Virus record (IMG/VR): IMGVR_UViG_3300028914_000084
Strand: one strand, 5' to 3'
Length of the DNA stretch: 64,000 nucleotides
Origin: an uncultured virus (IMG/VR IMGVR_UViG_3300028914_000084)
Lineage: Duplodnaviria; Heunggongvirae; Uroviricota; Caudoviricetes
In this document: positions 8,909 through 48,100 of the stretch, piece by piece
How positions within the stretch are numbered: the stretch's first letter is position 1
Layout: each line of letters starts with the position of its first letter
Program-made: the position numbers and the translations under genes
The notes under the pieces: model-generated
Told to the model about the DNA's origin: nothing
Databases searched by the model: none
The model's input: the letters and a program-made list of their open reading frames with translations, nothing else

Positions 8909-9340
8909 TTAATGTATCCAAGGACACATATCATTTTTAAATCTTTCAACTGGTTCTGGATATAATTCACTCCTATCACCATAATGTATTGCATCGTGAG
9001 TTTTCTTTACGGTTGTTATAAGATATTCTGGATCTAATAAATATTTTGATTTATTAATTATATCATCTTGAGTTATTGGGTTCATATGATGTATTAGTAT
9101 TTTATCGTAATTTATTTCATACCCATCACAACCTAAATCACAACCTCTATCTCTAGCTATTACTTTATTTCTAATATTTCTCCATTCAGTTGAATTATAA
9201 AATTTTTGATTAAGGTATCGATCGAAACCGAATGTTTCTTCACATACAACACCATTCAAATTTAAATAATCAAATCGCTCTTCGAAGGTTTTTAGCTTAC
9301 TTAACTCTGAGTAGCTCTTTATGTTTCTACTATTTATCAT
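8909..9340 (-). CDS. HNH endonuclease (packaging-associated)
   Basis: WRNIRNKVIARDRGCD, IHHMNP, THDAIH; adjacent to terS. Confidence 0.85.
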   Translation of the reverse strand: MINSRNIKSYSELSKLKTFEERFDYLNLNGVVCEETFGFDRYLNQKFYNSTEWRNIRNKVIARDRGCDLGCDGYEINYDKILIHHMNPITQDDIINKSKYLLDPEYLITTVKKTHDAIHYGDRSELYPEPVERFKNDMCPWIH

Positions 9341-9689
9341 CTTCTGAAACGTCCTCCTCTTCGTAATCATGACCTTGATAATGTGTCATGGCTTTGATAG
9401 CTTCTTTGTACATTTCTTCAATTTCTTTAGCAGATTCTAATGATTGAATTTTAGCAGCAGCTAACTTTGCTTGCATTTCTAGTAACTCATTCTTCTTTTT
9501 CATTTCAGCGGTTGCTAATTTTAAATAATGAGTTATAACTTGTGAAGACGCGGTTCCATCTTTCAATTGTTTCTCAGCTAGTTCTGTTGCTAGGTAAATC
9601 ATTTGATTCTCTCGAGCTTCAGGAGTTAAAGCAGGTCTTATACTAGGGCCTTCTGAATTTTTGCTTGATACTTTTTTAATAGTTATCAC
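9330..9689 (-). CDS. Probable terminase small subunit
   Basis: Small helical protein, first gene of the packaging module; start codon uncertain. Confidence 0.6.
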   Translation of the reverse strand: MITIKKVSSKNSEGPSIRPALTPEARENQMIYLATELAEKQLKDGTASSQVITHYLKLATAEMKKKNELLEMQAKLAAAKIQSLESAKEIEEMYKEAIKAMTHYQGHDYEEEDVSEDDK

Positions 9690-9721
9690 TCCTTTCTAAC
9701 TATTTATTAAGCTTTTTATTA

Positions 9722-9894
9722 TAGTATAGATAATGCTTAGCGTGACTTATAAGGACTTTATGTATAGTTTTTTATAGTGGTTTACAAGGAAAGGAGCGAT
9801 ATAAATAGTGTCTTTTAGTACGTTTAAATAATTAGGAGTGAGCTGCAATAAAAAATGTTCAACTTATAAGCCACACTAAGCACTACCTATGCTA
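9722..9894 (-). ncRNA. Candidate hairpin RNA with antisense anti-RBS loop segments
   Basis: 32-bp inverted repeat (9722-9753 with 9863-9894); 4 of 5 mismatches are G-U on the minus strand; loop has 18/18 matches to two phage RBS regions. Confidence 0.7.
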
Positions 9895-9935
9895 AAATGT
9901 TTTTTCAAAAAATCCTTTCCGGAGAATTTTCAAAG

Positions 9936-9944
9936 AGGGGCGCG
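9936..9944 (-). other. Candidate cos site (CGCGCCCCT)
   Basis: GC-rich island just upstream of terS and HNH, flanked by G/C runs and TTTTCAAA repeats. Confidence 0.45.
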
Positions 9945-9966
9945 ATAAAGGACGGGGGGTATGTTT

Positions 9967-10245
9967 TTAGACCCCCTCCCCTATGTCTTTTTCGGTATTA
10001 TATACCTTTATGTACACATCAAAAGGATCAATTTCAATTAATCTATCAATAGCTTTTGCTGTTTCTTCATCTTTTTGTGCATTTGACATGTAATCTTTAA
10101 TGTTTGCAAGTCTTGCAATCTTTGAACAAGTTGAATAATTGTTATCGACATCAAACTGAAACCATTCATCGAACTGTGTAAACGGATTGTAAGGATTATC
10201 AATTGTTGTTAACATGAATTCTTTTGTTTCTTCTTCGTTATTCAT
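9967..10245 (-). CDS. Hypothetical protein, last gene of the RNAP operon
   Basis: MLTTIDNPYNPFTQFDEW; starts 3 nt after the RNAP stop. Confidence 0.7.
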   Translation of the reverse strand: MNNEEETKEFMLTTIDNPYNPFTQFDEWFQFDVDNNYSTCSKIARLANIKDYMSNAQKDEETAKAIDRLIEIDPFDVYIKVYNTEKDIGEGV

Positions 10246-10248
10246 AGA

Positions 10249-13200
10249 TTATTCAGCTCCTTTCAAATACTTATAAAGTGTAGACTTAGAAACACCCATC
10301 TTTTTAGCTATTTGTTCTATAGTAAAGTTAGAATCAGCCATTCGCTTAGCTCTTTCTATTTGTGCTGTTGAAAGAGAAGCTTGTTGTTTAGGCATTGCTC
10401 TTTGTCTCAATGAATCAGGGTCTGAATTGTCAAGTATTTGCTTTAATTTATTATTACTTATAGCACCAGCTTGTATAGCTTCCCATTCTTTGTCATCGAT
10501 AGTTATGTTACGCTTTCTTCTAGAAACCGAACCAATTTCCTCTCTATTCTTACTTAATGAACGTTGACCAAGTTTCTTTAGGTCTTCACCAGAAAGTGAT
10601 GGGTCCTCAGATATACGTTTACCTAGTTCTACATTAGACTTACGTAATGCTTCCCTCTCCCTCCATGCGTTCTTCTGAGCATCGTTTAGTTTAGCCTCTA
10701 GTGAGCTAACCTGTTGTGCATATTGTCTAGCAGCAGAGGGATTATATTGTAGGTCTTTGGTATTATGTATCTCTAATCTAGCGTTGTTAGCTAATGCTTT
10801 TAAACTGTTGGCATAGTTAGCATACTCTATCTCCTTAGGGTTACGTGGGTCTCCCATTAGGGTTCTAGCATCATCTGCTTCAGCCATTCTTGTGCTTGAT
10901 TCGGTTCTCTTAGCAGTTCTATAGACTATATCCCCTTTTTTATTTGTATAATATCCAGTACCATCTTTAGCTACATGTAGTACAGGAGCATATTTATCTT
11001 TAGCCTTAGGGTCTCTTGTATCATAGGATATCTTTTTACCATCTACAGTAGTCATAGTTCTTATACCAGTAGTTTGGTCGATACTTCCTACAGCAAAATA
11101 CAATTTACTAGGGTCTGCTTGAGTATATATTAAAGAACCTTCTGGTTTACTTGGGTCGTAATAAGATTTACCTTTAATATTTACTTTAGGTTGACCTTGT
11201 CTTTTGTCTATTCTTTCTTCACCTTTTGCTCTTGAAACAATTGTTCCAGCTCCACCATAACCGATAATGTTTCCATCAGCATCTCTTTTTATCTGATACT
11301 TTGCTTTTAGTCTAGATATTTCATTATCTATTTCACTTGCTTTATAGTCATACTTATGTTTTTCTGCATCAATAACAACCATTGAATGCTTAACAGCCAT
11401 TGCTAAATCTTTATCATTAGCACCTTGTAAAGTCATGTCAGTTATAAGATTAGATACAACACCCATTTCTCTTTGTTTAGTTCTGTTTGACATAGCTGTA
11501 AATTCATGACCATCATATTTATATATCTTATTTCCTTTACTATCAGTTTTTATTTTCCCATTTGAATCATAAACTGGTTCGCCTTCATACATTCCTGGGT
11601 CGAAACCTTTTAAATCTTGTAAATATGGTCTTCTAGAAACTTTAACTTTACCTTTAGGATCATCAGTAGGTATACACATTACTGTATCACCATCAAAATC
11701 AGCACCTGATAATTGGTCAGCTACTTTTTTATTAATACAAACAGCATCAATAGTATCCGATTTGCCAATTAGTTTTTGTCCTAATTTATTTTTATTATTA
11801 ACAGTACATACTGGAATTTCGAATGTTCCAGAATGCGGATATCTTACTAATGCTAATTTAGTTCCATCAGCATATCCAGGAGCATATATTTCATTTTCTT
11901 TTAATGTATTATTAGGTATAATAACATGATATTTTTGTCCTGGTAAAGCAGCAGCTTTTAAATCAACAGCGGCTTTATCACAACCATCAGCAAACTTTTG
12001 AAGATAGTATTTCTTTATAACTGGGTTCGTTAAGTTATTTATTTCCTCGAACTCTTCTGTTTTATTTGCTTTTGCTAAACCAAGTTGCTTTTTAATCATG
12101 GTAATGTTTTGTTTAGATAAGAATTGTGATGGTAATGCATCAGACCATTCAGTCCAATCACCTTCAGCAGATTTCTTGTTAATTAAACCTAGTTTCTTTT
12201 TACCTTTTTCATCAGTGTACCAATATTGTCCGCCTTGGTCAGCGTCTTTTATTGTGGAACCAAAAGGGTTTTCTGGATCTTTCTTAATATTTTTCAATAC
12301 TTGTTTTACATTTTTATCAGGGTCCATAACTGGAGTTCCTCTAGATTTGTTAGTATTGAATATAACATCTACACCTGGTGGAAAGTCTTTATCATCACCA
12401 TAAACAGCCATACCTTTTAAATAATGAGTTCCATCTACTAATATACGAACTTGAGAATAGTGGTCACCATTAAGGCTTAAATCTTTAACGCCTCTTCTTA
12501 ATTCAATAACACCATCTTTGTCAACACCTTTAATACCATCAGAATCTTTATCTTCTGCATATCTTATTTTCAATCTCTTAGAATCTAATGATTCTGGATA
12601 ATTAAACTTCTTTTCTAATGTTTTACCATTATCTCTTGAGATATATTTAGTTAGTGTTTCAATCTGGTCATAATTATATAATTCAGAAGGTGTATTTTTT
12701 CCTTTTGCTGGTTTTATTTCTGGTTTACATAATACTTTTTGAATAGTTTGATTATTTTTATTTGTTGGTTGTGGAATACGGTTACTATATGTTCCATAAC
12801 CTTCTTTTTCTAGTAAATATAAAGCAGCATCTAATTTTTCTCTAGATACATTTATTTCTTTTTCTACTCCTTTACCAACATCAATCATTCCATATTTAGA
12901 TTCATCTATTCTTTTCTTTAAAGAAGCAGCTAAATCTCTAGTTTGATTTTCTTTGGTTTTAGCCATTTGTAGTTTATAACCTCTAACTGTGGATTCACTG
13001 ACATTTCCTAATTCTCTACCAATTTGAGTATCACCCCAAGTTGGATGTTCTTCCATTATTTTTCTTACTCTAGAAAATATAACAGCTTGTCTATCTTCTT
13101 TACAGATTCTTTTTTCAGCTCTATAATCGTTTATAGATAATCCAAAAGTATTTTTAATATTTTCAGGAGTCTCTTTCCAACCACTTAATTTTAATTGTTC

Positions 13201-13386
13201 TACTTTTTGTAAGAAATCTTTAGGTCTCTGAATTGGTTTATCACCTGATCCATAATGATATCTTCCAGAACCTGGACCAACTTTAGATTCAATATGGTCT
13301 AATCCGACATGTTCTAGAAATTCCTCTTCAGACCATTTAGAAGAACCCAAATAACTAATTATTTCATCAGCTAATTTTTGACTCAT
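10249..13386 (-). CDS. Single-subunit two-barrel RNA polymerase (YonO-like) with HTH domains
   Basis: LVRYPH (RxP) and GADFDGD catalytic motif; HTH-like segments at the N- and C-termini. Confidence 0.82.
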   Translation of the reverse strand: MSQKLADEIISYLGSSKWSEEEFLEHVGLDHIESKVGPGSGRYHYGSGDKPIQRPKDFLQKVEQLKLSGWKETPENIKNTFGLSINDYRAEKRICKEDRQAVIFSRVRKIMEEHPTWGDTQIGRELGNVSESTVRGYKLQMAKTKENQTRDLAASLKKRIDESKYGMIDVGKGVEKEINVSREKLDAALYLLEKEGYGTYSNRIPQPTNKNNQTIQKVLCKPEIKPAKGKNTPSELYNYDQIETLTKYISRDNGKTLEKKFNYPESLDSKRLKIRYAEDKDSDGIKGVDKDGVIELRRGVKDLSLNGDHYSQVRILVDGTHYLKGMAVYGDDKDFPPGVDVIFNTNKSRGTPVMDPDKNVKQVLKNIKKDPENPFGSTIKDADQGGQYWYTDEKGKKKLGLINKKSAEGDWTEWSDALPSQFLSKQNITMIKKQLGLAKANKTEEFEEINNLTNPVIKKYYLQKFADGCDKAAVDLKAAALPGQKYHVIIPNNTLKENEIYAPGYADGTKLALVRYPHSGTFEIPVCTVNNKNKLGQKLIGKSDTIDAVCINKKVADQLSGADFDGDTVMCIPTDDPKGKVKVSRRPYLQDLKGFDPGMYEGEPVYDSNGKIKTDSKGNKIYKYDGHEFTAMSNRTKQREMGVVSNLITDMTLQGANDKDLAMAVKHSMVVIDAEKHKYDYKASEIDNEISRLKAKYQIKRDADGNIIGYGGAGTIVSRAKGEERIDKRQGQPKVNIKGKSYYDPSKPEGSLIYTQADPSKLYFAVGSIDQTTGIRTMTTVDGKKISYDTRDPKAKDKYAPVLHVAKDGTGYYTNKKGDIVYRTAKRTESSTRMAEADDARTLMGDPRNPKEIEYANYANSLKALANNARLEIHNTKDLQYNPSAARQYAQQVSSLEAKLNDAQKNAWREREALRKSNVELGKRISEDPSLSGEDLKKLGQRSLSKNREEIGSVSRRKRNITIDDKEWEAIQAGAISNNKLKQILDNSDPDSLRQRAMPKQQASLSTAQIERAKRMADSNFTIEQIAKKMGVSKSTLYKYLKGAE

Positions 13387-13944
13387 CTAATTATCACCCT
13401 CTCTTAATACATTATCAAAATGAACAATCATATTCATAACTTCAATTACTTCTTCAGCAGTTGGAGAATATTCTATAATATCATCACATTGATATAATCT
13501 TAATATTATTGATGTTAACTCCTTAGGGTCAACTTTATATTCCAAACAAAATAATGCAGCATACACAATCAATTGATCCATATGTGCTGGAATTTTACCA
13601 GTTTTTAAATCGTGTATTCTTAACACCTTTGTTTTTTCATTATAGTTTATAGTATCTGCTGTACCATAAAAATATATGGAATAAAATAAAACCACTTCTG
13701 GAGTCATATTAAAACCAATAGCATCATTAACATATGCGTTTATAGTTTTCTTTGTTCTAGGCATCTTAATACCTAGCTTTATAGTTTCTGCAGCCCATTC
13801 ATGCAAACGAGTTCCTAGCTCCTTTGCTTTCATATTATCTCTAACCTCTAATATTTTCTCATCAGTATATCTTAACCAACTTGATTTACTTGCTGAGAAT
13901 GGTGCATGAGTACCTTCGAGATTAGAATGATTTTTAAATACCAT
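13387..13944 (-). CDS. PD-(D/E)XK (Cas4-like/DUF2800-like) nuclease
   Basis: GTRLHE, YGTADTI, IHDLKTG, QLIVYA motifs. Confidence 0.75.
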   Translation of the reverse strand: MVFKNHSNLEGTHAPFSASKSSWLRYTDEKILEVRDNMKAKELGTRLHEWAAETIKLGIKMPRTKKTINAYVNDAIGFNMTPEVVLFYSIYFYGTADTINYNEKTKVLRIHDLKTGKIPAHMDQLIVYAALFCLEYKVDPKELTSIILRLYQCDDIIEYSPTAEEVIEVMNMIVHFDNVLREGDN

Positions 13945-13959
13945 TTATATCGCTCCTTT

Positions 13960-14253
13960 CTATTTATTGAAAAAGGAAGTGAGCTTCTCAACAACCTCTT
14001 CTTTGTTCTCTGGATATATAAATCTTGAGAAAGACATATTATCCATTTTTTCAACATAATAATCTTGATTAGGTTGATGTTTTGCTTTTGATGATTTTTT
14101 GTTTTCCAAAGTAGCCCATTTATTTTCATATAGAATTAATAAGTCTGGAATACCTTGAGTATCATTCGGGTCTAGTTTAAGTATCATACAACCCGGAAGC
14201 AATTCTTTCAACTCTTTTTTCAAATTATGTTGAAACTCACTTTCTAATTTCAT
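13960..14253 (-). CDS. VRR-NUC/Holliday-junction-resolvase-like nuclease
   Basis: ESEFQ, GIPDLLIL, LENK, QPNQ motifs. Confidence 0.75.
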   Translation of the reverse strand: MKLESEFQHNLKKELKELLPGCMILKLDPNDTQGIPDLLILYENKWATLENKKSSKAKHQPNQDYYVEKMDNMSFSRFIYPENKEEVVEKLTSFFNK

Positions 14254-14334: not shown

Positions 14335-14361
14335 TATAAAAGGACGTGATTTTTACGCGAA
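14335..14361 (-). promoter_or_regulatory. CGCG promoter-like motif, variant copy
   Basis: 15 nt identical to the 26919 copy, but the -10-like hexamer is TTTTAT. Confidence 0.6.
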
Positions 14362-14515: not shown

Positions 14516-14947
14516 TTAATAATATAAAAAGAATGCATCAACTGTTACATCCAATGCATTCGCTAACTTCGATAATGTTAATATGTCTGGCATACGTTTA
14601 TGATTAATGTATCTAGATAAACTGGCTTCTGTAATACCTAATCGTTTAGCTAACTGTTGTTGATTAATACAGCGACGTGCCATCCAATATCTAACCATAT
14701 GTTTAAACTCGTATAATATTTGTGCGTCACTATGAACTCCTTCAGGATCTCTAACATTTAGAAACTGATGTCCGAATCTACAAAATATAGTTCGACTTCC
14801 GTTTTTAAAATTAACTAATAAATGACGATCAGTTAATTCTTTAACACTTTTTACATTTTCATCTTTGTAGATAGGGTATGTAATTTTTAGCATCAGCTCA
14901 TACATATATAATTCGTTATCAGTAAGACCTTCTAATGTACTATACAC
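14516..14947 (-). CDS. XRE-family HTH regulator
   Basis: INQQQLAKRLGITEASLSRYIN..RMP...LSKLANALDV. Confidence 0.85.
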   Translation of the reverse strand: MYSTLEGLTDNELYMYELMLKITYPIYKDENVKSVKELTDRHLLVNFKNGSRTIFCRFGHQFLNVRDPEGVHSDAQILYEFKHMVRYWMARRCINQQQLAKRLGITEASLSRYINHKRMPDILTLSKLANALDVTVDAFFLYY

Positions 14948-14981
14948 ATTATCACTCCTTTCACCTTGTAAATATCCTTTG

Positions 14982-26091: not shown

Positions 26092-26603
26092 AATTTATAA
26101 CCTCTTTTGAATATATTTTCAGTTGTTAATATCCTTATTATTTTTGGATTAATTTTAACAGGTCCTACTGTTATATATAAATCATCATTTTTTAATAAAT
26201 TTAATTTTCTAACATACTCTAATCTATTATCAGAATATCTAAATAATTGATCTCGAGCTGTGTCGAAATACAAGACAATGTTGTTTTCATCATCTTTTCG
26301 TTTAACAATAGCTGTATCATAAACCTTAGCAACTCCATCAAAATATTCAATAACTACAATATCACCAGTCATTAATAATTTAAATATATTGCTTGTTGGT
26401 CCATAACCTTTAACTATTTCATTATAACCATTCCATTTGATAGGATCTTTAACTACAGATATACAATGTTCATCTATAATATCCCCTTCATTACTATCTA
26501 AATGAAATTGAAATTGATTTTTTAATAACCTTTCGGCATCAACATTCCCTATATAACCTCGTGATGTTCTAATATATTTATTTTTAATATTTATCTCACT
26601 CAT
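26088..26603 (-). CDS. Hypothetical protein, first gene after the 26632 terminator
   Basis: SD TAGGAG; its RBS is matched by the 9722 hairpin loop. Confidence 0.65.
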   Translation of the reverse strand: MSEINIKNKYIRTSRGYIGNVDAERLLKNQFQFHLDSNEGDIIDEHCISVVKDPIKWNGYNEIVKGYGPTSNIFKLLMTGDIVVIEYFDGVAKVYDTAIVKRKDDENNIVLYFDTARDQLFRYSDNRLEYVRKLNLLKNDDLYITVGPVKINPKIIRILTTENIFKRGYKL

Positions 26604-26624
26604 TACAATCCACTCCTAATTATT

Positions 26625-26660
26625 TAAAAATAAGAGTCTAGGTCATTCGCCTAAACTCTT
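26625..26660 (-). terminator. Rho-independent terminator
   Basis: AAGAGTTTAGG/CCTAGACTCTT stem plus ATTTTT. Confidence 0.7.
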
Positions 26661-26918: not shown

Positions 26919-26945
26919 CATTATAAGAAGTGATTTTTACGCGAA
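26919..26945 (-). promoter_or_regulatory. CGCG-N14-TATAAT promoter-like motif
   Basis: TTCGCGTAAAAATCACTTCTTATAATG. Confidence 0.75.
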
Positions 26946-29749: not shown

Positions 29750-29776
29750 CATTATAACAAATGTTTTTTACGCGAA
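29750..29776 (-). promoter_or_regulatory. CGCG-N14-TATAAT promoter-like motif
   Basis: TTCGCGTAAAAAACATTTGTTATAATG. Confidence 0.75.
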
Positions 29777-32700
29777 TTAATCAGCTGTAAACATTTCGAA
29801 ATCTCCATATTGAGATATAGATTCTACAGCACTGTCGACTAATTCATTATAATATCTTCTATCAATAAAATCATTTCCATTATTAAATTCATCTCGTATC
29901 ATTTCAGATTCGACCCAACGATATCCTTTACTGCCACCAACAGAATTATATTTACCATCTTGATCTCTCATTAATAATCCACCACCTTTTCCAGGTAATA
30001 CTGGACAAAAGTTACCAACCTTCCCAACAAATTTATAATCATGACCACTATTGATTTCGTCTAACAAATCTCTACTTACCGTTTCAAATTCACCATCAGA
30101 TATTTTACCATCTTTATAAGATTTCTTTAATTTGTCTAATTCTTTTTCTGCATTTGTAACATCTGGTAAACTTTCATTTAAATCTAAATATAATGCAGAC
30201 TTAACAGATTTAGTTTCACACATATCCTCAAATTCAATAGGTTCTTTACTAAATAATTTCTTGAATACATAAGGAACTTGGAATTGTGTACCTGTAGCAG
30301 TCCATTCGCCACTATGCTTAGTACAGTCTCCTGGAGAATAACCATATTCTTTTTCACAACTTTCTGCTGTAGCATATTTAGCAATATAAACTGCATCATT
30401 TACTAAACACATTCTTTCGTATGTAGCCTCATGTTCAAATGTATAACCATATTTCTCACCAAATTCCATAACAAATTTAATTATTTCATTATCTGCATTA
30501 GGTATCTTTATAGAATCTGTTTTAATATGTGCAACTGTATATCCACGTTTTTGAACCTCTTCTTTTAGATCTATCATAAATAACGCTCCACGTTTTGCTA
30601 CAAGATTGTCTTTGTTTCTGACATCTCTAAATGGATTATCAAAATTAGCAGCTGTTAAACCGTATACAGAATTTATAGCAGTCTTTAATGCGTTAGCCAA
30701 AGATTTAGATGTCATTTCACCATCAATAACTTTTTGAATATATGGTGTTAATTTGCCACCTAACATCTTATTAACTTCATCCCAAGCTTCGTGCTTGATA
30801 CTAACACGACCCTCAACAATTTCTCTGAATACTCTAGTGAATCTAGGTCCAAATACACATTCTGCTATACTACTATGTGGATGCATTGAAACTATATCGA
30901 GTAAAGCTACCCTATTATACATACCTGGTTCAGAATATACATGACCGCCTTCACCAACTTCTTCACCTTTATAAGTTGATACGCCATTCTTATATTGATA
31001 TCCAGGAAAATATGGTAATAATGATTTCTCAGACCCATGTTTTTGAGACATCATGATAGGACAAGCTTCTTTTAAGAATTTAAGAACCTCGTCAGGTAAT
31101 TCTTTAACAGGTTGAGATAGATTTCTATAACAGAATTCACTTTGTGGTTTCTTTTCATTACCAAATATGATTTTTGTTGTTAATGCGTTTGTAGTATCAT
31201 TAACAGTCATTCCTGCTAAATCTGCTAGGATTTGTCTAGCTGTCCAATCAGGTTCAAGATGATCAAATACTGCTTCTGTAGCTATAACATCATTATCACA
31301 ATATTCTGCAACTTTAGCCCATAATTCCTCTGGTACTGGCTCGTCCCAAGGTAATCCAAGTTCTTGATGATGTATACCTAATTCAATCTCAAATTTCTTT
31401 AATGATTTCTTATTTCCAGCAGAAGCAAAATCATATACATCAGTATAAGATAAATTATAAGCTTCTCCAAAAAAAGCATTCTTATCACCACTTACTATCC
31501 TTTGAGATAAATTATATAATTGATCGTTCGAATATCCTAATAATCTAGCATATATAATATGATTATCGTATCGTCTATTATTAAAACCTATTAAACGATA
31601 TTTTATAAGTTCCTCGATATCCTCTGGTGAAGGGTTTATCATTCTTATAACTGGATTTTCTTTACCTTTTAATTTCCAATTAACAAGAAATAAATTTGGG
31701 AACACTTCAATATCATAAAATGCTATTTCTTTTTCTTTACTATCTACAGGTGTTGATACATCTTCAGATTTAAAATGCATTTTATTAACAAGTTTTAAAC
31801 AATAATCAGCATGATTTGTACTATTCATTGCGAATGAAATAATATCATTTTTCATATTACTAACATCATATTTTAAACCCTGTTCATATGAATCCTCTAG
31901 CAACTTATATATAAAATCTACACTAGGTTTTGTTCCAGGATGTATTTCTTTATTTAAATTCCTTTCTATTAATTGTCGTAAACTTTTTTCACTCTTTATA
32001 GTATTATCACTTACCACTCGTTTGACCTCCTTAATAGGTAATCCTGAATTTATTGTAGAAATCGGTACGTTATTACATTTAGTTAATTTTCTTCTTAGTG
32101 AACTTTTACCAGTAAATACTTTTATTTCAATACTATCTGCGTATACTCTACTTAATTTAGTTACATCGCCAGTATAAATATAATGTAAGTGTATACCAGC
32201 ACCACTTTTAGACAATTCAGCATATGTCTTAGGCCACTTACTAGCCTCTTCTAAATTTTTCTCATATGATTTATTACCATTTTCATCCTTTATATCAAAA
32301 TCTATAACAATATGATTTTCTGGAATCTTTACATAATGAATCTTATGAGAATCCAAATCTTTTAATGTAGTAGTTACATCGTCCCATTTTTTATTTGGTG
32401 TTTCATTTGTATTGGCGTATTGTGCTAAACAATCACCACATTCTTTATCAAATATAGATTTCTGCTCCTTAAAATCTATAGTATATGAATTATTCTTTTC
32501 AACAGGTTTAGATTCTTTCTCATCAGAATCAAATATCTCTTTTCTAAACCCGCTATAATAACTTCTAACACGTTCGCCTTCGATATTAAATCTATCATTA
32601 TATTCTTTAAAGTAGTTTTTTAATTCTTCTTTAAATGCTCTCTGTGAGAATGGATAACCTACTTTTGCCTCGTCACAATATGTTTTATACATTTCCCAAG

Positions 32701-33829
32701 CAGATTTCAAAGTAACTCCATCTTCTCTTTTGAATATATGATATGAGTCGAGTACAAAGTTATAGAAATCATTTGATGCACTCATCATTGATGTTGGAAT
32801 ATAGTGGTCATAAGCCCCAGGATTTTCTTTATAAACCTCCATACAATGATAAGCTATAGCACCTAATTCAAATTTTATCTGATTAGTTAAAGTTTTGTAT
32901 TCTTTAGAGCTTACTTTATTACCAGTAGGATGTACATCTATTAAACGTCTTATTAAACCGGATTTACCGTCTGTAATCTTTACTGGTTTATTAGTACCCA
33001 TAAATAAGAAACATTTAAACCTATTAGCATATGTTGATTTAAATTTTTCATTAACTGTCATCAATTCATGAGATACTAAACTATTCAATCTAGTGTTATC
33101 TTCAATTCTTGATAAATCACCATCGTGTTGGATAGCTACTAATGGATTTGTTTTAAAAGATTCTAATGCAAATGAATTGTTTGCAGAACCTAAAGCCTTG
33201 GCATCAAATACTGAATAATAACCTTCAAATAATTGTTGTATAATATTTAATATAGTAGATTTACCAGTACCTGCTGCCCCATACAATACTAAAAACTTTT
33301 GTATATTTTTAGAATCACCAGTAACTATAGCACCTATAGCCCATTCTAATTTTCTTCTTTCTTCTTGCGAATATAAAGTAGATATAAGTTTTTCATAAGC
33401 ATCTATATTACCAGGTTCTAGTGGATATGATAATTTCTTACTAGCATAGTCTTCTTTCTTAACATCTGTGTTAGAGAATATAATATTTTCATCTAACATC
33501 TCGAAAGAATCACGCTTTTGTTTTTGACAATATTTATGCCAGGAGTCGATGGCTCCACTTGTAGAATCCCAAGTATACTTAGGAATAACAGTATACTCAG
33601 GATTTTCTTTCTTTGCTTTTTCTGCAACTCTATATATTTCACTATCAATTATAGCTAATGCGTCATCTTCGTTTGTAGACCATATTTTCTTATCTTCTAA
33701 CCATACTGCATAAAAATCGCCACCTCGTATCATCAAATCAGTAGACTTTGGATATACTTTAAACTTAGGAACTATTTCTATAATATTATTTTTACAACTA
33801 TGTTCAGATACGATTAAAAAATCAGCCAT
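29777..33829 (-). CDS. SF3 helicase-primase-family B DNA polymerase fusion
   Basis: GAAGTGKST; IVIDFD and SKSGAGIHLHY (prim-pol); FYDIEVF and YCDNDV (exonuclease); LDIVSMHP, KTAINSVYG, KTDS (PolB). Confidence 0.88.
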   Translation of the reverse strand: MADFLIVSEHSCKNNIIEIVPKFKVYPKSTDLMIRGGDFYAVWLEDKKIWSTNEDDALAIIDSEIYRVAEKAKKENPEYTVIPKYTWDSTSGAIDSWHKYCQKQKRDSFEMLDENIIFSNTDVKKEDYASKKLSYPLEPGNIDAYEKLISTLYSQEERRKLEWAIGAIVTGDSKNIQKFLVLYGAAGTGKSTILNIIQQLFEGYYSVFDAKALGSANNSFALESFKTNPLVAIQHDGDLSRIEDNTRLNSLVSHELMTVNEKFKSTYANRFKCFLFMGTNKPVKITDGKSGLIRRLIDVHPTGNKVSSKEYKTLTNQIKFELGAIAYHCMEVYKENPGAYDHYIPTSMMSASNDFYNFVLDSYHIFKREDGVTLKSAWEMYKTYCDEAKVGYPFSQRAFKEELKNYFKEYNDRFNIEGERVRSYYSGFRKEIFDSDEKESKPVEKNNSYTIDFKEQKSIFDKECGDCLAQYANTNETPNKKWDDVTTTLKDLDSHKIHYVKIPENHIVIDFDIKDENGNKSYEKNLEEASKWPKTYAELSKSGAGIHLHYIYTGDVTKLSRVYADSIEIKVFTGKSSLRRKLTKCNNVPISTINSGLPIKEVKRVVSDNTIKSEKSLRQLIERNLNKEIHPGTKPSVDFIYKLLEDSYEQGLKYDVSNMKNDIISFAMNSTNHADYCLKLVNKMHFKSEDVSTPVDSKEKEIAFYDIEVFPNLFLVNWKLKGKENPVIRMINPSPEDIEELIKYRLIGFNNRRYDNHIIYARLLGYSNDQLYNLSQRIVSGDKNAFFGEAYNLSYTDVYDFASAGNKKSLKKFEIELGIHHQELGLPWDEPVPEELWAKVAEYCDNDVIATEAVFDHLEPDWTARQILADLAGMTVNDTTNALTTKIIFGNEKKPQSEFCYRNLSQPVKELPDEVLKFLKEACPIMMSQKHGSEKSLLPYFPGYQYKNGVSTYKGEEVGEGGHVYSEPGMYNRVALLDIVSMHPHSSIAECVFGPRFTRVFREIVEGRVSIKHEAWDEVNKMLGGKLTPYIQKVIDGEMTSKSLANALKTAINSVYGLTAANFDNPFRDVRNKDNLVAKRGALFMIDLKEEVQKRGYTVAHIKTDSIKIPNADNEIIKFVMEFGEKYGYTFEHEATYERMCLVNDAVYIAKYATAESCEKEYGYSPGDCTKHSGEWTATGTQFQVPYVFKKLFSKEPIEFEDMCETKSVKSALYLDLNESLPDVTNAEKELDKLKKSYKDGKISDGEFETVSRDLLDEINSGHDYKFVGKVGNFCPVLPGKGGGLLMRDQDGKYNSVGGSKGYRWVESEMIRDEFNNGNDFIDRRYYNELVDSAVESISQYGDFEMFTAD

Positions 33830-33856
33830 TCATATCACTCCTTTACTTAATATATT

Positions 33857-36894: not shown

Positions 36895-36921
36895 CATTAT
36901 ATCGTATGTTTTTTACGCGAA
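36895..36921 (-). promoter_or_regulatory. CGCG-N14-TATAAT promoter-like motif
   Basis: TTCGCGTAAAAAACATACGATATAATG. Confidence 0.75.
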
Positions 36922-37686
36922 TTATCCCCATCTATCAAAATTATGAGTTGGCGATTTTTCATAGTCTAATACTATACATGGTTCAGTATCGTCTACTAAA
37001 CAAGTTGACATATTTAATTTTATTATGCCGTTTGTAATATTCCATCCTATCAAATCACCTTCTTTCAATGGATCTAATCCATACCCAGAATATAATTCAT
37101 TTAATGATACATAATCTTGATGGTTTATTTTTTCATTAAGTTCGTTTATCACTTTATTTATAGTGTTCATGTCAGACCTAAAATACCTTCCAGATATTTC
37201 ATCTCTAAATAAAGTATTACCACTAGATGTGACAATTATTGTATTATTCTTTGGCGGATCGTTTTTAATATCGTCTTCGTGTATTTTATCTCTTATTTTT
37301 TGCTCTTCTTTTTCACCAATAGTCTCAATAACTTTCTCCTTATATTTTAATAATGTTTTCTCAGATAATGCACAAGCTGCACCTAATGCTGCATTTCTCT
37401 TTAAATTTATGCTATTACCACCTATTATACAGCTAATTGAGATAATTTCTAAAGCTACTATTGGAGCATAATCTTTCCAGCATATTTTAATAATTTCTTT
37501 ACTAGACAAACTAGATTCTCTTTCTTTTTCAATATCTTGAATTTTCATCGTAACTCTTGATGTTGTAGTCATAGTCCAAAATGTCGCTCCTACAGTTCCG
37601 ACTATACCTACACCTGTTAAAATTTCAGGACCATGTTTTACCAAAGCCCTTTTAACATTATTAGTAATATCCTCAAATTTACCCAT
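36922..37686 (-). CDS. DUF6353-like protein, paralogue 2
   Basis: KHGPEILTGVG; SGRYF; VSLNELY...IGW. Confidence 0.7.
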   Translation of the reverse strand: MGKFEDITNNVKRALVKHGPEILTGVGIVGTVGATFWTMTTTSRVTMKIQDIEKERESSLSSKEIIKICWKDYAPIVALEIISISCIIGGNSINLKRNAALGAACALSEKTLLKYKEKVIETIGEKEEQKIRDKIHEDDIKNDPPKNNTIIVTSSGNTLFRDEISGRYFRSDMNTINKVINELNEKINHQDYVSLNELYSGYGLDPLKEGDLIGWNITNGIIKLNMSTCLVDDTEPCIVLDYEKSPTHNFDRWG

Positions 37687-38860: not shown

Positions 38861-38887
38861 CATTATATGAGATGTTTTCAACGCGAA
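38861..38887 (-). promoter_or_regulatory. CGCG-N14-TATAAT promoter-like motif
   Basis: TTCGCGTTGAAAACATCTCATATAATG. Confidence 0.75.
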
Positions 38888-38905
38888 AAAAGAAAAGAAG
38901 ATTTA

Positions 38906-39832: not shown

Positions 39833-39859
39833 CATTATATCATATGTTTTTTACGCGAA
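39833..39859 (-). promoter_or_regulatory. CGCG-N14-TATAAT promoter-like motif
   Basis: TTCGCGTAAAAAACATATGATATAATG. Confidence 0.75.
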
Positions 39860-39875
39860 AAAATATAAAGGGTGT

Positions 39876-40067
39876 TTAACCCTCTACATTAATTTGACAT
39901 ATTCCTTTTTCGTCAGAATTCTTAAGTAATAATTCTTTTACGTCGTCGATTGCACTTCTTCTACCGTGTTTAATTCCAATACTATACATTATCATAAACC
40001 CAGAAGCTACAAGACACAATACTCCAACCTCCATTAATACATTACTTAATACATATCCGATTTCCAT
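39876..40067 (-). CDS. Small membrane protein (cassette)
   Basis: One TM; SD. Confidence 0.65.
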   Translation of the reverse strand: MEIGYVLSNVLMEVGVLCLVASGFMIMYSIGIKHGRRSAIDDVKELLLKNSDEKGICQINVEG

Positions 40068-40082
40068 TTATATCTCTCCTCT

Positions 40083-40109
40083 CATTATAAGAGATGTTTC
40101 CAACGCGAA
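40083..40109 (-). promoter_or_regulatory. CGCG-N14-TATAAT promoter-like motif
   Basis: TTCGCGTTGGAAACATCTCTTATAATG. Confidence 0.75.
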
Positions 40110-40371: not shown

Positions 40372-40398
40372 CATTATAAGAGACGTTTTCAACGCGAA
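40372..40398 (-). promoter_or_regulatory. CGCG-N14-TATAAT promoter-like motif
   Basis: TTCGCGTTGAAAACGTCTCTTATAATG. Confidence 0.75.
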
Positions 40399-40419
40399 AA
40401 ATAAAAGGGTATGTTAATA

Positions 40420-45161: not shown

Positions 45162-48100
45162 TTATTCAAACACATCTTTTAAACTTCTAATAACTTCTGC
45201 ATATATAATAAATGTCTTGTCAGTATTAGTTTGAGATATGTTAGTTTGTGTGTCATAAGAATATGTTTTTTTAATGTTGTTAAGTTGAGTAATAAGAGTA
45301 GTATCAGTTATTTGTGTGTCAGTTGGTGTTGCTAATTGATAGTAAACTGAAACATTATTATCTTCTAACCAGTCAGTATATTCTTGTTTAGTAGTGAAAC
45401 CATCGATTTTAAATGTCATTTTTTTACCACTATTCCATCCGAATTCTCCACTTTGAATGTTTGTAGTTATACTTGTTGCATAATAATGATATTCAAAATG
45501 GCTAGAATAAGCACTCATTGTTGCTCCAATTGCTCTAATGTCATTTGGCATTTCATTTGTACTTTGTAAAACATTATTTGTTAATGTCCAATCTTCAGTA
45601 CCATTTAATACTACTTTACCAATTTCACTATGTTTGTACCAATTACCATTACTTTCATATATGTAATCTTGATATGTTCCTATTTTACATAATTCCATAC
45701 TACCTAAATTGATAGGGAATACTTGACTTTCAGTATTATCACTATTTGATATTGTTATTGTGTTGTTTCCACTTACTACATTTACTTGACTAGGTCTACT
45801 TGGACTTGGACTTGGTGTTACAAAGTTGTAATGTAAATCTATATAAGGTAGTAAATTACTTGTATCAGTGTTTATATTTGTTATAGGGTAGATAGTTGCA
45901 TTATATAAAGCATTTAATTGATTTACTAGTGTTGTATCAGTTATTTCAGTTGTTGTTGGTGTAGCATAAGGGTAATATACTATTACATTATTTTGAGATA
46001 ACCAAGTTTGGAATTGTTGTGTTGTCATTTCTTTTGTAGCATTGTAATAAAAACCAAATGAGTTATATGAAAATATTGCATTTGTAGGATATATACAATC
46101 TTGTAAATACCAAGCTTTGCTTCGACTACCACTTACAAATTTATTGCAGTAAAAAGGTGCATTTTCTTGTGTTGCATCAGTTGAATATATATTTGTACCA
46201 ATATCTATTGAAAAACTATAATAACCAGTAGCGCTTGTTGCTTTTCTTGCTATTGGCTCAGTACCATTTAAAACAACCTTACCAATTGTTTTATATAAAT
46301 ACCATTTATTATTTTGTTTGTATATTCTGTCTTGATATGTACTTATTTTGCATAATTCCATATTACCTAGATTTATTGGATATGTTGTACTTTGAGTATC
46401 ATCACCGTTTGTAATAGTTATATTTTGTGTTCCTGTTACTATATCAATGTTACTAGGTCTTTTAGGTGATGGCGAAGGTGTTACCACATTATAATGTAAA
46501 TCTATATAAGGTAGTAGGTTAGTTGTATCAGTGTTTATATTTGTTATAGGGTAGATAGTTGCATTATATAAAGCATTTAATTGATTTACTAGTGTTGTAT
46601 CAGTTATTTCAGTTGTTGAAGTCTGCTGAGGATAATATACATTAGTATTATGTGTTCCTAACCAAGTTGTCCAATTCCCTACACTTGTTTCACTAGAATT
46701 AAACATTATTGAATTTCCACCATCACGAATGGCAAATAATCCTGCCCTATTACTAGGGTATGATTTGGCATTTATAAAATAATTTGACAAAGCATCTATA
46801 TAATTTGAAATAGAATGTATTATATTAGTATTAATATAATAATTACCTGATGTATCACTGCCTTTATACCACCCTGTTTCACTACCATTTAAAGTGATTT
46901 TACCAATATTTTTTTCTAAATACCACTTATCATTTCTCTTGTAGATTCTATCTTGATAAGTTGATATTTTGCATAATTCTATATTGCCTAAATTTACTTG
47001 ATATGTTGTTCCTTGAAATGTTTCGTATGTTGTAGCTATGTTATTTTTTTCAACTTGAATTGTTCCAGCTATTTCTTGTAATGTTTTTGCTGGGTTTGTA
47101 TCATTAGCTTTTATAAACATATATAAATATTTTGCATTAGGGCTTGTTGTCAAAGTTAATGAAGTAGCACTATTATAACCACTTCGTTGTCCTGCATAAC
47201 TTAAAGCATAATCTCCAATAACAGCAATATCTTCAGTATCGAATATACAAAATCTATCATTACCAAATAGTTCAGTCTTTGATACAGTGTAAGTCGTATT
47301 AGGTTGACAAGGTATATAAATACAACCCCTACCTACGTTTGTTTCGGTTATTTTATTTGAATTTGATAAATAAATATTTTGGGTATTTATATTATTCTTA
47401 TCTAATAAGTTTTTACCACATACTTTAACATTTTGTGTTCCTGTTACTACCTCTATATTTTGTGGATAACTTGGGTTAGGTATACTTGCTACACTATCGT
47501 AAATGAATGCTCCAGTCCCTTGATTAATGTAGAACACATTGTTTACCAAATCATATAGACCAATTTCATTATCACTATTTCGATAGCAAGGTATAAAATC
47601 TCTTACTAATGTTCCATTATAATACATTTTACAAGCCCATAATTTGAATGTTCCTTTATATTGTGTAGCATTTGAATTTCTACCAAACAACCAAAAATTA
47701 AGTTCTACATTATCAATATTTGTTGGTATTGTTGTAGTAGTTGTATTATCTAAAACTACTTTCCCTTCTGGTACATTTAAGTCCCATAAATGTCTATCTG
47801 TGCTTGCTGAGTTTATTATACCGTAATTTGCATCATTTACCCAAAATGCTATTGAATTTGAACCACTTAAAAGGTGATATCTTTTATTAGGTGTACCTAT
47901 ATTTATTGCACCCATTGTTTGATTAGCATTTGTTGGGTTAATAAAAGAAATATCTAAAATAGTTCTTAATTTAGTATCTGCATTTATTCCAGTATCAATA
48001 TATTGACCACCTGTACTTCGAATATAATCAACTTGAGTGTATTCACTTGGTAATATTGCATTTGCTTGATAAGTATTACCACTTATTTCAATAGTATTTT

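What the first reader, a model, noticed from the sequence alone, without database searches (positions are those of the whole stretch)
9722..9894. Hairpin RNA whose loop carries two 18-nt segments antisense to the RBS and start codons of distant phage genes
Seen: arms 9722-9753 and 9863-9894 form a 32-bp stem. All 5 mismatches are transitions and 4 are G-U pairs on the minus (gene-coding) strand, a pattern typical of RNA structure. Loop segment 1 (9789-9806, GAAAGGAGCGATATAAAT) is the exact reverse complement of 13943-13960, the RBS/start of the nuclease gene whose stop abuts the RNAP start; pairing extends over the AUG. Loop segment 2 (9823-9840, TTTAAATAATTAGGAGTG) is the exact reverse complement of 26611-26628, the RBS of the first gene of the long small-gene block; 9 of the next 10 nt also pair (several G-U), again across the AUG. 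Segment 1 also fits the polymerase RBS (about 33826-33844, 3 G-U) and the XRE RBS (14950-14972, 2-nt bulge). Inference: a multi-target trans-acting antisense RNA made with the late genes that shuts off translation of RNAP-operon, replication and accessory genes. I do not recognise it as a named family. Alternatives are a plus-strand GGA-rich sponge or a DNA cruciform near cos.
Basis: partly seen in the sequence, partly recalled or inferred. Interest (0 to 1): 0.92.

Follow-up and report, generated by a model that had tools for sequence, protein, structure and literature searches.

The report
Phage leader hairpin carrying anti-Shine-Dalgarno loop
A conserved RNA hairpin at the very start of a rumen phage's packaging operon displays sequences complementary to ribosome-binding sites, here matching several of the phage's own early genes, so it may let late transcription turn down early protein synthesis.

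Summary
Arms 9722-9753 and 9863-9894 pair 27 WC + 4 G-U + 1 C-A on the minus strand. The two 18-nt loop segments are the only long-range inverted exact repeats of 16 nt or more in the 64-kb window.

The hairpin starts 41 nt inside the physical left end (cos) of a siphophage that encodes an RdRP-like RNA polymerase. It is one member of a widespread family that is not in Rfam. The family has a 23-41 bp stem, with compensatory changes at 24 of 25 pairs. Its mismatches are 106 G-U against 27 A-C on the coding strand, while flanking DNA shows no such bias. The loop almost always carries CUCCUUUC, the anti-Shine-Dalgarno sequence, in 43 of 44 elements.

Long complementarity to specific start sites exists only in the window's own clade. 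There, segment 1 and the nuclease start site changed together at two positions in a third lineage.

No transcript data were obtained. A trans-acting anti-RBS role is the best reading for this clade (about 0.4). A cis-acting leader or RNase III site is the main rival. It is a new variant of a known kind.

The parts
9863..9894 (-). 5' arm of the long stem, on the coding-strand RNA
   Evidence: 27 WC + 4 G-U + 1 C-A of 32. Covariance model R1, built without this sequence, matches 9725-9891 on the minus strand at 41.9 bits, E 2.6e-7.
9754..9862 (-). 109-nt loop domain carrying the two anti-RBS segments
9722..9753 (-). 3' arm of the long stem
9789..9806 (-). Anti-RBS segment 1. On the minus strand it reads AUUUAUAUCGCUCCUUUC and contains the family-invariant CUCCUUUC at 9796->9789.
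   Evidence: The motif's predicted unpaired probability is 0.91.
9823..9840 (-). Anti-RBS segment 2. On the minus strand it reads CACUCCUAAUUAUUUAAA.
13935..13961 (-). Start site of the exonuclease gene, first of the nuclease-RNAP pair. It is complementary to segment 1.
   Evidence: -32.7 kcal/mol. Covariation with the loop in G002 and L157.
26592..26633 (-). Start site of the 171-aa gene, complementary to segment 2
   Evidence: -33.5. One co-varying position against G002.
14936..14977 (-). Start site of the XRE-family regulator gene, complementary to segment 1 and its flanks
   Evidence: -35.1. The fit is not conserved in L157.
33822..33850 (-). Start site of the primase-polymerase gene, complementary to segment 1
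   Evidence: 3 mismatches; -29.3.
40063..40091 (-). Start site of a 63-aa gene, a member of the repeated start-site family, complementary to segment 1
   Evidence: -29.3.
9895..9935 (-). Conserved left-end block, CUUUGAAAAUUCUCCGG..., between the cos end and the stem
9936..9944 (.). cos cohesive-end stretch. On the coding strand it reads CGCGCCCCT.
   Evidence: DNA contigs of two independent runs stop at 9935 and one restarts at 9945. The same junction and the same ends are seen in relatives.
9683..9713 (-). RBS region of the first gene (phrog_4259 protein, ORF 9330-9689). It is a possible cis partner of segment 1.
   Evidence: -21.7 kcal/mol; the SD lies in a local hairpin loop.

Best explanation
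The region encodes a structured RNA on the minus (coding) strand. It forms the first about 170 nt of the leader of the packaging/structural operon and begins 41 nt after the cos end.

The structure is a 32-bp stem of the kind RNase III cuts. It encloses a loop that exposes anti-Shine-Dalgarno sequence. The element acts by base-pairing with ribosome-binding sites.

In this phage clade the anti-SD has grown into 18-21 nt complementarity with the start site of the nuclease-RNAP gene pair. It has also grown complementary to other early/middle genes: XRE, the 171-aa gene, the DNA polymerase and a small gene. The leader, or a loop RNA released from it, would therefore repress their translation in trans once transcription runs across cos into the late operon.

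Shown: the structure, its strand, its conservation, the complementarity, and loop-target covariation for one target. Inferred: that it is transcribed, that it is processed, and that pairing represses translation.
For: Structure and strand:
- 42 distinct upstream inverted repeats were found among 78 relatives' loci.
- Their mismatches are 106 G-U, 27 A-C and 22 transversions on the coding strand.
- In 2.4 kb of flanking genes, substitutions that would create G-U (685) and A-C (707) are equal over 11 triplets.
- A sequence-only alignment of 18 lineages gives 25 pairs, 24 with compensatory changes. 93.1% of cells are paired, 0 of 500 shuffles reach this, and slid partners give 34-51%.
- That alignment has 45 G-U against 6 A-C. 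Read as the opposite strand it would be only 83.8% paired.
- Model R1 finds the window's element as its only hit in the window.

Anti-SD:
- CTCCTT is in the loop of 43 of 44 elements; the reverse complement is in 0 of 44.
- The motif is predicted unpaired at 0.78, against a loop mean of 0.54.
- The full 8-mer CTCCTTTC is present at 43 of 47 sites.

Specific pairing in this clade:
- Searches give the matches and energies.
- Own loop against foreign genomes gives z -6.5 for the window and -7.1 for G002.
- G002 keeps a 21-nt match, and one position co-varies at each of the two targets.
- In L157 both the loop and the nuclease start site read GGAGTGACATA, where the window has GGAGCGATATA in both.
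- Duplex preference is reciprocal: -28.3 against -20.7, and -32.7 against -27.3.
- Beyond the exact 18-mers, mismatches are mostly G-U type. For target 2 in the window there are 5 G-U and 1 A-C (read).

Conservation: a 97%-identical variant in run X5 has 27 differences in 9000-9654 but only 3 in 9690-9935.
Against: - No sigma-70-type promoter or intrinsic terminator frames the element on the minus strand. It is not an independent sRNA gene as far as these scans go.
- In 13 other complete genomes the own loop pairs no better with its own start sites than foreign loops do.
- The nuclease start site is not a preferred partner in those genomes; its median rank fraction is 0.41.
- The XRE fit is absent in L157, at -14.7.
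- Strong partners are not significantly concentrated in the non-structural half. Mann-Whitney p exceeds 0.1 in 15 of 15 genomes.
- The targets belong to one repeated start-site family, which also includes the first gene's own RBS at -21.7.
- Covariation at 2+1+1 positions could also come from gene conversion, or from a shared DNA-binding site.
Confidence: 0.4

Rival explanations
1. Cis-acting leader. The same RNA regulates only the operon it heads. The anti-SD masks the first gene's Shine-Dalgarno sequence through a loop-to-downstream pairing. The long stem serves as an RNase III processing site or 5' stabiliser that sets the mRNA's 5' end. The long matches to distant genes would then be by-products of a shared start-site family.
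For: - The element always sits at the head of the first operon, 24-90 nt before the first RBS.
- It stays at the cos end even when other genes come before the phrog_4259 gene, as in L004 and Lactococcus phage CHPC971.
- The conserved part is only the generic 8-mer.
- Segment 1 can pair 13 nt with the first gene's RBS, at -21.7.
- 13 of 15 genomes show no phage-specific trans complementarity.
Against: - The first gene's start site is not a preferred partner in relatives. Its ranks run from 5 to 73 among 70-104 sites.
- In this clade the longest complementarity is to distant genes, and it co-varies with them.
Confidence: 0.27
2. DNA-level site. The inverted repeat and loop motifs would be binding sites beside cos for terminase, HNH or a regulator, in the manner of cosB. 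Alternatively they would be operators shared with early promoters. They would not be an RNA.
For: - The position between cos and the first gene matches that of cosB in lambda (recalled). An HNH gene and the terminase genes lie just downstream.
- Spacing from the physical end is tight, 36-52 nt.
- The arms share a loose sequence consensus.
- Covariation of the arms, and of loop with targets, is also expected for sites read by one protein.
Against: - Double-stranded DNA sites give no reason for a 4:1 to 7:1 excess of G-U over A-C on one strand.
- They give no reason for the motif to equal the anti-SD, or for local hairpins to present it.
Confidence: 0.1
3. RNA acting on a protein or on RNA polymerase rather than on RBSs. 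It could be a put-like antitermination element for the long late operon. It could also be a mimic of the 16S rRNA 3' end that binds or decoys factors recognising CCUCCUUUC.
For: - The 8-mer is invariant regardless of each phage's own RBS flavour.
- The motif lies 14-25 nt before the 3' strand of a long stalk in most elements. This is the layout of pre-16S rRNA (recalled).
- The element heads an operon of more than 20 kb.
Against: - No further similarity to 16S rRNA or to known antiterminator RNAs was found.
- Loop-target covariation points to RNA-RNA pairing.
Confidence: 0.12
4. Chance palindrome and chance matches in AT-rich DNA.
For: The genome is about 30% G+C, and its RBSs are stereotyped.
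Confidence: 0.01

Closest known systems
Firmicute base-pairing sRNAs with C/U-rich loops that bind Shine-Dalgarno sequences (RsaE/RoxS type; recalled, not tested by any search)
   Same: A pyrimidine-rich anti-SD is exposed in loops, and it is complementary to the start sites of several mRNAs.
   Different: It is not an independent gene with its own promoter and terminator as far as the scans show. It lies inside a 32-bp stem at the head of an operon. It is phage-encoded and aimed at the phage's own genes. It gives no Rfam match.
RNase III processing hairpins of phage polycistronic mRNAs (T7 R sites, SP82) and the rRNA processing stalk (recalled)
   Same: A long, imperfect double-stranded stem formed by distant flanks, at an operon boundary, with G-U pairs tolerated.
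   Different: Here the enclosed loop carries a conserved anti-SD. Cleavage has not been tested.
Lambda cosB / terminase-binding region (recalled)
   Same: It lies between the cos cut site and the first packaging-operon gene.
   Different: The strand-biased G-U pattern and the anti-SD motif point to RNA rather than to a double-stranded DNA site.
Start-associated sequences of Cluster K mycobacteriophages (recalled)
   Same: A repeated, extended RBS-plus-spacer sequence sits in front of a subset of phage genes.
   Different: Here an antisense copy of that repeat sits in a structured leader. I do not recall this being described for SAS.
Candidate structured RNAs catalogued from IMG/VR (PMC10690425; passages read)
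   Same: The same data source and the same kind of object: conserved phage intergenic structures, some of them upstream of genes.
   Different: I could not tell whether this motif is among the 10,006 candidates. The searchable supplements did not hold six of the contig names, and two large files and a third supplement file were not searched.

Membership tests
Any Rfam 15 family | A covariance-model match at or near the gathering score | tested here: not met
   The window region at E up to 10 gives only sub-threshold noise, 20 bits or less against cut-offs of 35-428. 20 relatives' loci at gathering threshold give 0 matches.
Trans-acting base-pairing sRNA | A discrete transcript with its own promoter and terminator | tested here: not met
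   No sigma-70-like promoter or intrinsic terminator frames it on the minus strand. Promoters of the phage's own RNAP type cannot be scanned for.
Trans-acting base-pairing sRNA | An accessible seed complementary to the start sites of its targets | tested here: met
Trans-acting base-pairing sRNA | Regulator and target co-vary across relatives | tested here: met
   The nuclease start site co-varies at two positions in L157 and one in G002. The 171-aa gene's start site co-varies at one position in G002. This holds in this clade only, not in 13 other genomes.
Trans-acting base-pairing sRNA | It is expressed and it represses its targets | not testable with these tools
   No usable RNA data.
RNase III processing site | About 20 bp or more of near-continuous double-stranded RNA | tested here: met
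   32 bp with one non-pair. Stems are 23-41 bp in relatives.
RNase III processing site | Cleavage by RNase III | not testable with these tools
   -
cosB-type terminase site | It lies next to the cos cut, before the packaging genes | tested here: met
cosB-type terminase site | The constraint acts on duplex DNA, with no strand bias | tested here: not met
   106 G-U against 27 A-C, while flanks give 685 against 707. In the 18-lineage alignment the counts are 45 against 6.
MITE or invertible DNA segment | Several copies in the genome, or both orientations seen among relatives | tested here: not met
   There is one model hit in the window. Arm-like sequence occurs only here. The motif has the same orientation in 43 of 43 motif-bearing elements. 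No inverted form was seen in the DNA contigs laid on it.
phi29-type packaging RNA | A left-end RNA with a 5'/3' helix, together with a phi29-like packaging system | tested here: not met
   The left-end position and terminal helix are present. However, packaging here is cos/HNH/TerL, and Rfam gives no pRNA match.

The most novel reading that the evidence does not exclude
The element is a miniature mimic of pre-16S rRNA. It has a processing stalk, and the 16S 3'-tail sequence CUCCUUUC sits about 20 nt before the stalk's 3' strand, often just after a small hairpin. Host rRNA-maturation enzymes would cut it out to give a free anti-SD RNA. That RNA would compete with ribosomes for Shine-Dalgarno sites, or it would decoy factors or toxins that recognise the 16S tail. 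The phage would thereby gain a general handle on translation, which some clades have retargeted to their own early genes.
Probability: 0.08. Interest if true: 0.9.

Novelty: new variant of a known kind. Interest (0 to 1): 0.7.

Why it matters
The phage supergroup concerned is very common. It comprises the RdRP-like-RNAP siphophages of Firmicutes and Actinobacteria. The first-gene family alone has at least 7,964 cluster representatives (90% identity) with E <= 1e-5.

A conserved leader RNA that presents the anti-Shine-Dalgarno sequence at the head of the late operon would be a simple, portable way to couple late transcription to translational control. The window's clade offers a natural test case, with defined targets and natural compensatory variants. 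One target is the gene pair that contains the phage's own RNA polymerase, which would give a feedback loop.

The analysis also pins down the cos site and the genome ends of this uncultured rumen phage.

Tried and rejected
- RNA evidence. One metatranscriptome run (X23) held a small share of the stretch. Its contigs lie only on the RNAP gene (10061-10301, 10416-10650, 10935-11000) and not on the hairpin. Contigs show neither strand nor ends, so this says nothing either way.
- The window's own assembly is not held. The nearest record, G001, lacks the region.
- DNA search of named phages with 9300-10300 gave only weak hits inside the first gene.
- Opposite-strand small ORFs after the SD-like loop sequences. 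The tiny frames (7-14 codons) are not conserved between the window, L001 and L002, and they are absent in L007 and L012 (read). Rejected.
- Mutational strand bias as the cause of the G-U excess. Rejected.
- A general 'late RNA against early genes' pattern. Not significant in any of 15 genomes.
- The nuclease start site as a conserved target outside the clade. Not found.
- First-gene protein as a clue. AlphaFold gives two helices at pLDDT 70.5. There is no PDB fold match at E <= 0.001, no Pfam or NCBIfam family, and the protein atlas returns only unnamed viral clusters.
- Model R1 found nothing at E <= 1 in eight named phages: six actinophages, Rhodococcus phage ReqiPepy6 and Lactococcus phage CHPC971.
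  - By eye, Arthrobacter phage Gordon has a 35-bp inverted repeat with CACUCCUUUC in its loop, and CHPC971 has a weaker one (13 on the scoring scale) with two CUCCUU motifs.
  - Gordonia DJ phages have only a weak left-end repeat without the motif, and ReqiPepy6 has none.
- Literature. Searches found no description of this element. The supercluster preprint 10.1101/842583 (passages read) does not mention an inverted repeat. One search failed on a term's syntax.
- A scan for more members of the window's clade found only L001 and L002 in viral contigs, and L157 and L158 in metagenome contigs.

Full report
**What is there.** The window is almost all of a ~65-kb, ~30% G+C siphophage genome with every gene on the minus strand.

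- Downstream of the finding, in the direction of transcription, lie a 119-aa protein of PHROG 4259 (9330-9689), an HNH endonuclease, a connector protein, the large terminase, the portal and a protease-capsid fusion.
- Upstream lie a 92-aa protein, a 1045-aa RdRP-like RNA polymerase with a C-terminal HTH (10249-13386), a Cas4-like exonuclease (13387-13944) and an XRE regulator.
- This is the supercluster described in bioRxiv 10.1101/842583 (passages read). It joins actinophage clusters AM, AU, AW, DJ, CC, EL and BI with Lactococcus 1706-like phages and Faecalibacterium phage FP_oengus. That text has no occurrence of 'inverted repeat'.
- The DNA occurs in ruminant gut metagenomes.

On the minus strand the two arms pair 27 WC + 4 G-U + 1 C-A of 32. 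Both 18-nt segments are exact. Among all inverted exact repeats of 16 nt or more in the window there are four: two self-palindromes and these two segments. Direct repeats of that length number 44. Several of them are a stereotyped start site, GAAAGGAGnGATATAAATG.

**It sits at cos.**
- In many of the 80 related IMG/VR loci, the PHROG 4259 gene starts 200-370 nt from a contig end.
- DNA contigs of two independent runs stop exactly at 9935, and one restarts at 9945.
- Relatives' linear contigs begin CCTTGAAAA/CTTTGAAAA. Two carry what I recall as Illumina adapter remnants directly in front of that sequence.
- Those contigs end ...CAT, after a G5-7/C5-7 hairpin. One wrap-around contig shows the junction CAT-CGCGGCCCT-CTTTGAAAA.
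- Named actinophage genomes start with the same block.
- So 9936-9944 (CGCGCCCCT on the coding strand) is the cohesive end. Because it is missing from both contig ends, it is probably a 3' overhang (inference). The stem starts 41 nt inside the left end.

**It is a family, and it behaves as RNA on the coding strand.**
- A strand-symmetric scan of the 450 nt upstream of the gene was run on 78 loci; 2 of 80 were dropped for having fewer than 60 nt upstream. It found 42 distinct long inverted repeats, with arms of 16-41 nt (mostly 23-41) and spacers of 36-164 nt.
- Their mismatches are 106 G-U, 27 A-C and 22 transversions on the coding strand.
- Polarised substitutions in 2.4 kb of downstream genes, over 11 triplets, give 685 G-U-creating changes, 707 A-C-creating changes and 761 transversions. 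Mutation bias therefore does not explain the excess.
- A MAFFT alignment of 18 lineages aligns the arms by sequence alone. RNAalifold gives 25 pairs, 24 with compensatory changes.
- On that alignment 93.1% of cells are paired, 0 of 500 shuffles reach any measure, and slid partners give 34-51%. It has 45 G-U against 6 A-C, and would be 83.8% paired if read as the other strand.
- A covariance model built from those 18 sequences, without the window, finds 9725-9891 (minus) at 41.9 bits, E 2.6e-7. That is its only hit in the window.
- The same model finds a coding-strand hit at E <= 0.01 in 64 of 80 loci. Seeds and their near-copies match by construction. Seven of the 16 misses have under 110 nt upstream.
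- In L004 the element is 40 nt from the contig end and 2 kb upstream of the PHROG 4259 gene. In Lactococcus phage CHPC971 a weaker repeat with two CUCCUU motifs is likewise at the end, with three genes inserted before that gene. The element goes with the left end, not with that gene.
- Rfam has nothing.
- Both strands of the window region fold better than shuffles, z -3.8 for minus and -3.1 for plus. Folding alone does not choose the strand.

**The loop carries the anti-SD.**
- CTCCTT occurs in the loop of 43 of 44 elements on the coding strand. Its reverse complement occurs in 0 of 44. A fixed orientation by itself would also fit a DNA site.
- The full CTCCTTTC is present at 43 of 47 sites. 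It is preceded by T-rich sequence, followed by a purine, and usually lies 14-25 nt before the 3' arm.
- It is predicted unpaired more than the rest of the loop, 0.78 against 0.54. It is often in, or just after, a small local hairpin.
- The sequence equals the 3' tail of 16S rRNA (recalled).

**How specific is the pairing?**
- In the window the loop's best partners are the XRE, 171-aa, nuclease, 63-aa and DNA-polymerase start sites, at -35.1 to -29.3 against a median of -18.0 over 81 sites. TerL gives -11.7, the portal -18.0, and the first gene's own RBS -21.7.
- Fifteen complete genomes were compared all against all. The own loop stands out only in the window (z -6.5) and its near relative G002 (z -7.1).
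- The other 13 genomes give z from +1.4 to -2.3. Their longest own matches are 11-18 nt, against 10-18 nt for foreign loops.
- The strongest partners are not significantly enriched among non-structural genes in any genome.
- The nuclease start site is not favoured outside the clade.

**Co-variation within the clade.**
- G002 (80% DNA identity in the flanking genes) keeps a 21-nt match to the nuclease start site. It shows one matched double change at each of the two targets.
- L157, a third lineage that crosses cos, has GGAGTGACATA in both the loop and the nuclease start site, where the window has GGAGCGATATA in both.
- Each loop prefers its own nuclease start site: -28.3 against -20.7, and -32.7 against -27.3. 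The XRE fit is not kept, at -14.7.
- By my rough count, the chance of the two L157 coincidences is below 0.01 (inference, not a formal test).

**Reading.**
- The conserved core is a leader RNA with an RNase III-type stalk and an exposed anti-SD at the head of the late operon.
- In the window's clade the anti-SD has been extended against particular early/middle start sites, above all that of the nuclease-RNAP pair. This makes trans repression the most economical reading there (about 0.4).
- It would form a feedback loop if late transcription depends on that polymerase (inference).
- A purely cis role (masking the first RBS, processing, stabilising) is the main rival (about 0.27). A duplex-DNA terminase or operator site (about 0.1) is disfavoured by the strand bias.
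- No promoter or terminator of its own was found. The RNA probably arises by transcription across the joined cos, or from an unrecognised phage-RNAP promoter (inference).
- Transcription, processing and repression are all untested.

**Prior description.** Six literature searches found none. The IMG/VR catalogue of 10,006 candidate structured RNAs (PMC10690425, passages read) may contain it. Its large supplements could not be searched.

Noticed in passing
window 9936-9975: The cos site is defined. There is a 9-nt cohesive stretch at 9936-9944. Just upstream of it on the coding strand, at the stop of the 92-aa gene, lies a G/C hairpin (GGGGGU...ACCCCC). The same hairpin ends the linear contigs of relatives G007, G009, G010 and G011.
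   Followed up: partly
window 14346-14361, 26930-26945, 29761-29779, 36905-36924, 38874-38890, 39843-39859, 40385-40401: A motif repeated in intergenic spots of the early/middle region. On the coding strand it reads about TTCGCGTAAAAA(A)CAT. It could be a promoter, operator or terminator element, perhaps for the phage RNA polymerase.
   Followed up: no
window 37673-37705/38636-38668 and 37862-37889/39008-39035; also 40065-40080: Direct repeats of 28-33 nt that include the stereotyped start site ...AATGAAAGGAGAGATATAAATG in front of small genes. This resembles the start-associated sequences of Cluster K mycobacteriophages (recalled).
   Followed up: partly
window 9680-9700: The first gene's start codon is unclear. 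The listed GTG (9689) lies inside the SD (GGAGTG). An ATT 8 nt after GGAG is conserved in the window, L001 and L002.
   Followed up: no
window 45860-45955/46523-46618 and 48519-48583/49035-49099: Exact direct repeats of 96 nt and 65 nt inside the 1593-aa ORF (45162-49943), probably a repeat-bearing tail or fibre protein.
   Followed up: no
L040 78-98 (loop of that relative's element): The loop contains GCTCAGTTGGTAGAG, which reads like a tRNA D-arm.
   Followed up: no
alignment A3, columns 25/161: One stem pair is most often G-U (9 of 18 sequences, against G-C in 5). The 5' arm's consensus there is SD-like (AAAGGAGC), opposite UUCC in the 3' arm. The stem itself therefore pairs an SD-like word with a weakened anti-SD.
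   Followed up: no
G006 and G010 contig starts: Remnants of what I recall as sequencing adapter sit directly in front of CTTTGAAAA/CCTTGAAAA. This marks true physical DNA ends in those metagenome assemblies.
   Followed up: no
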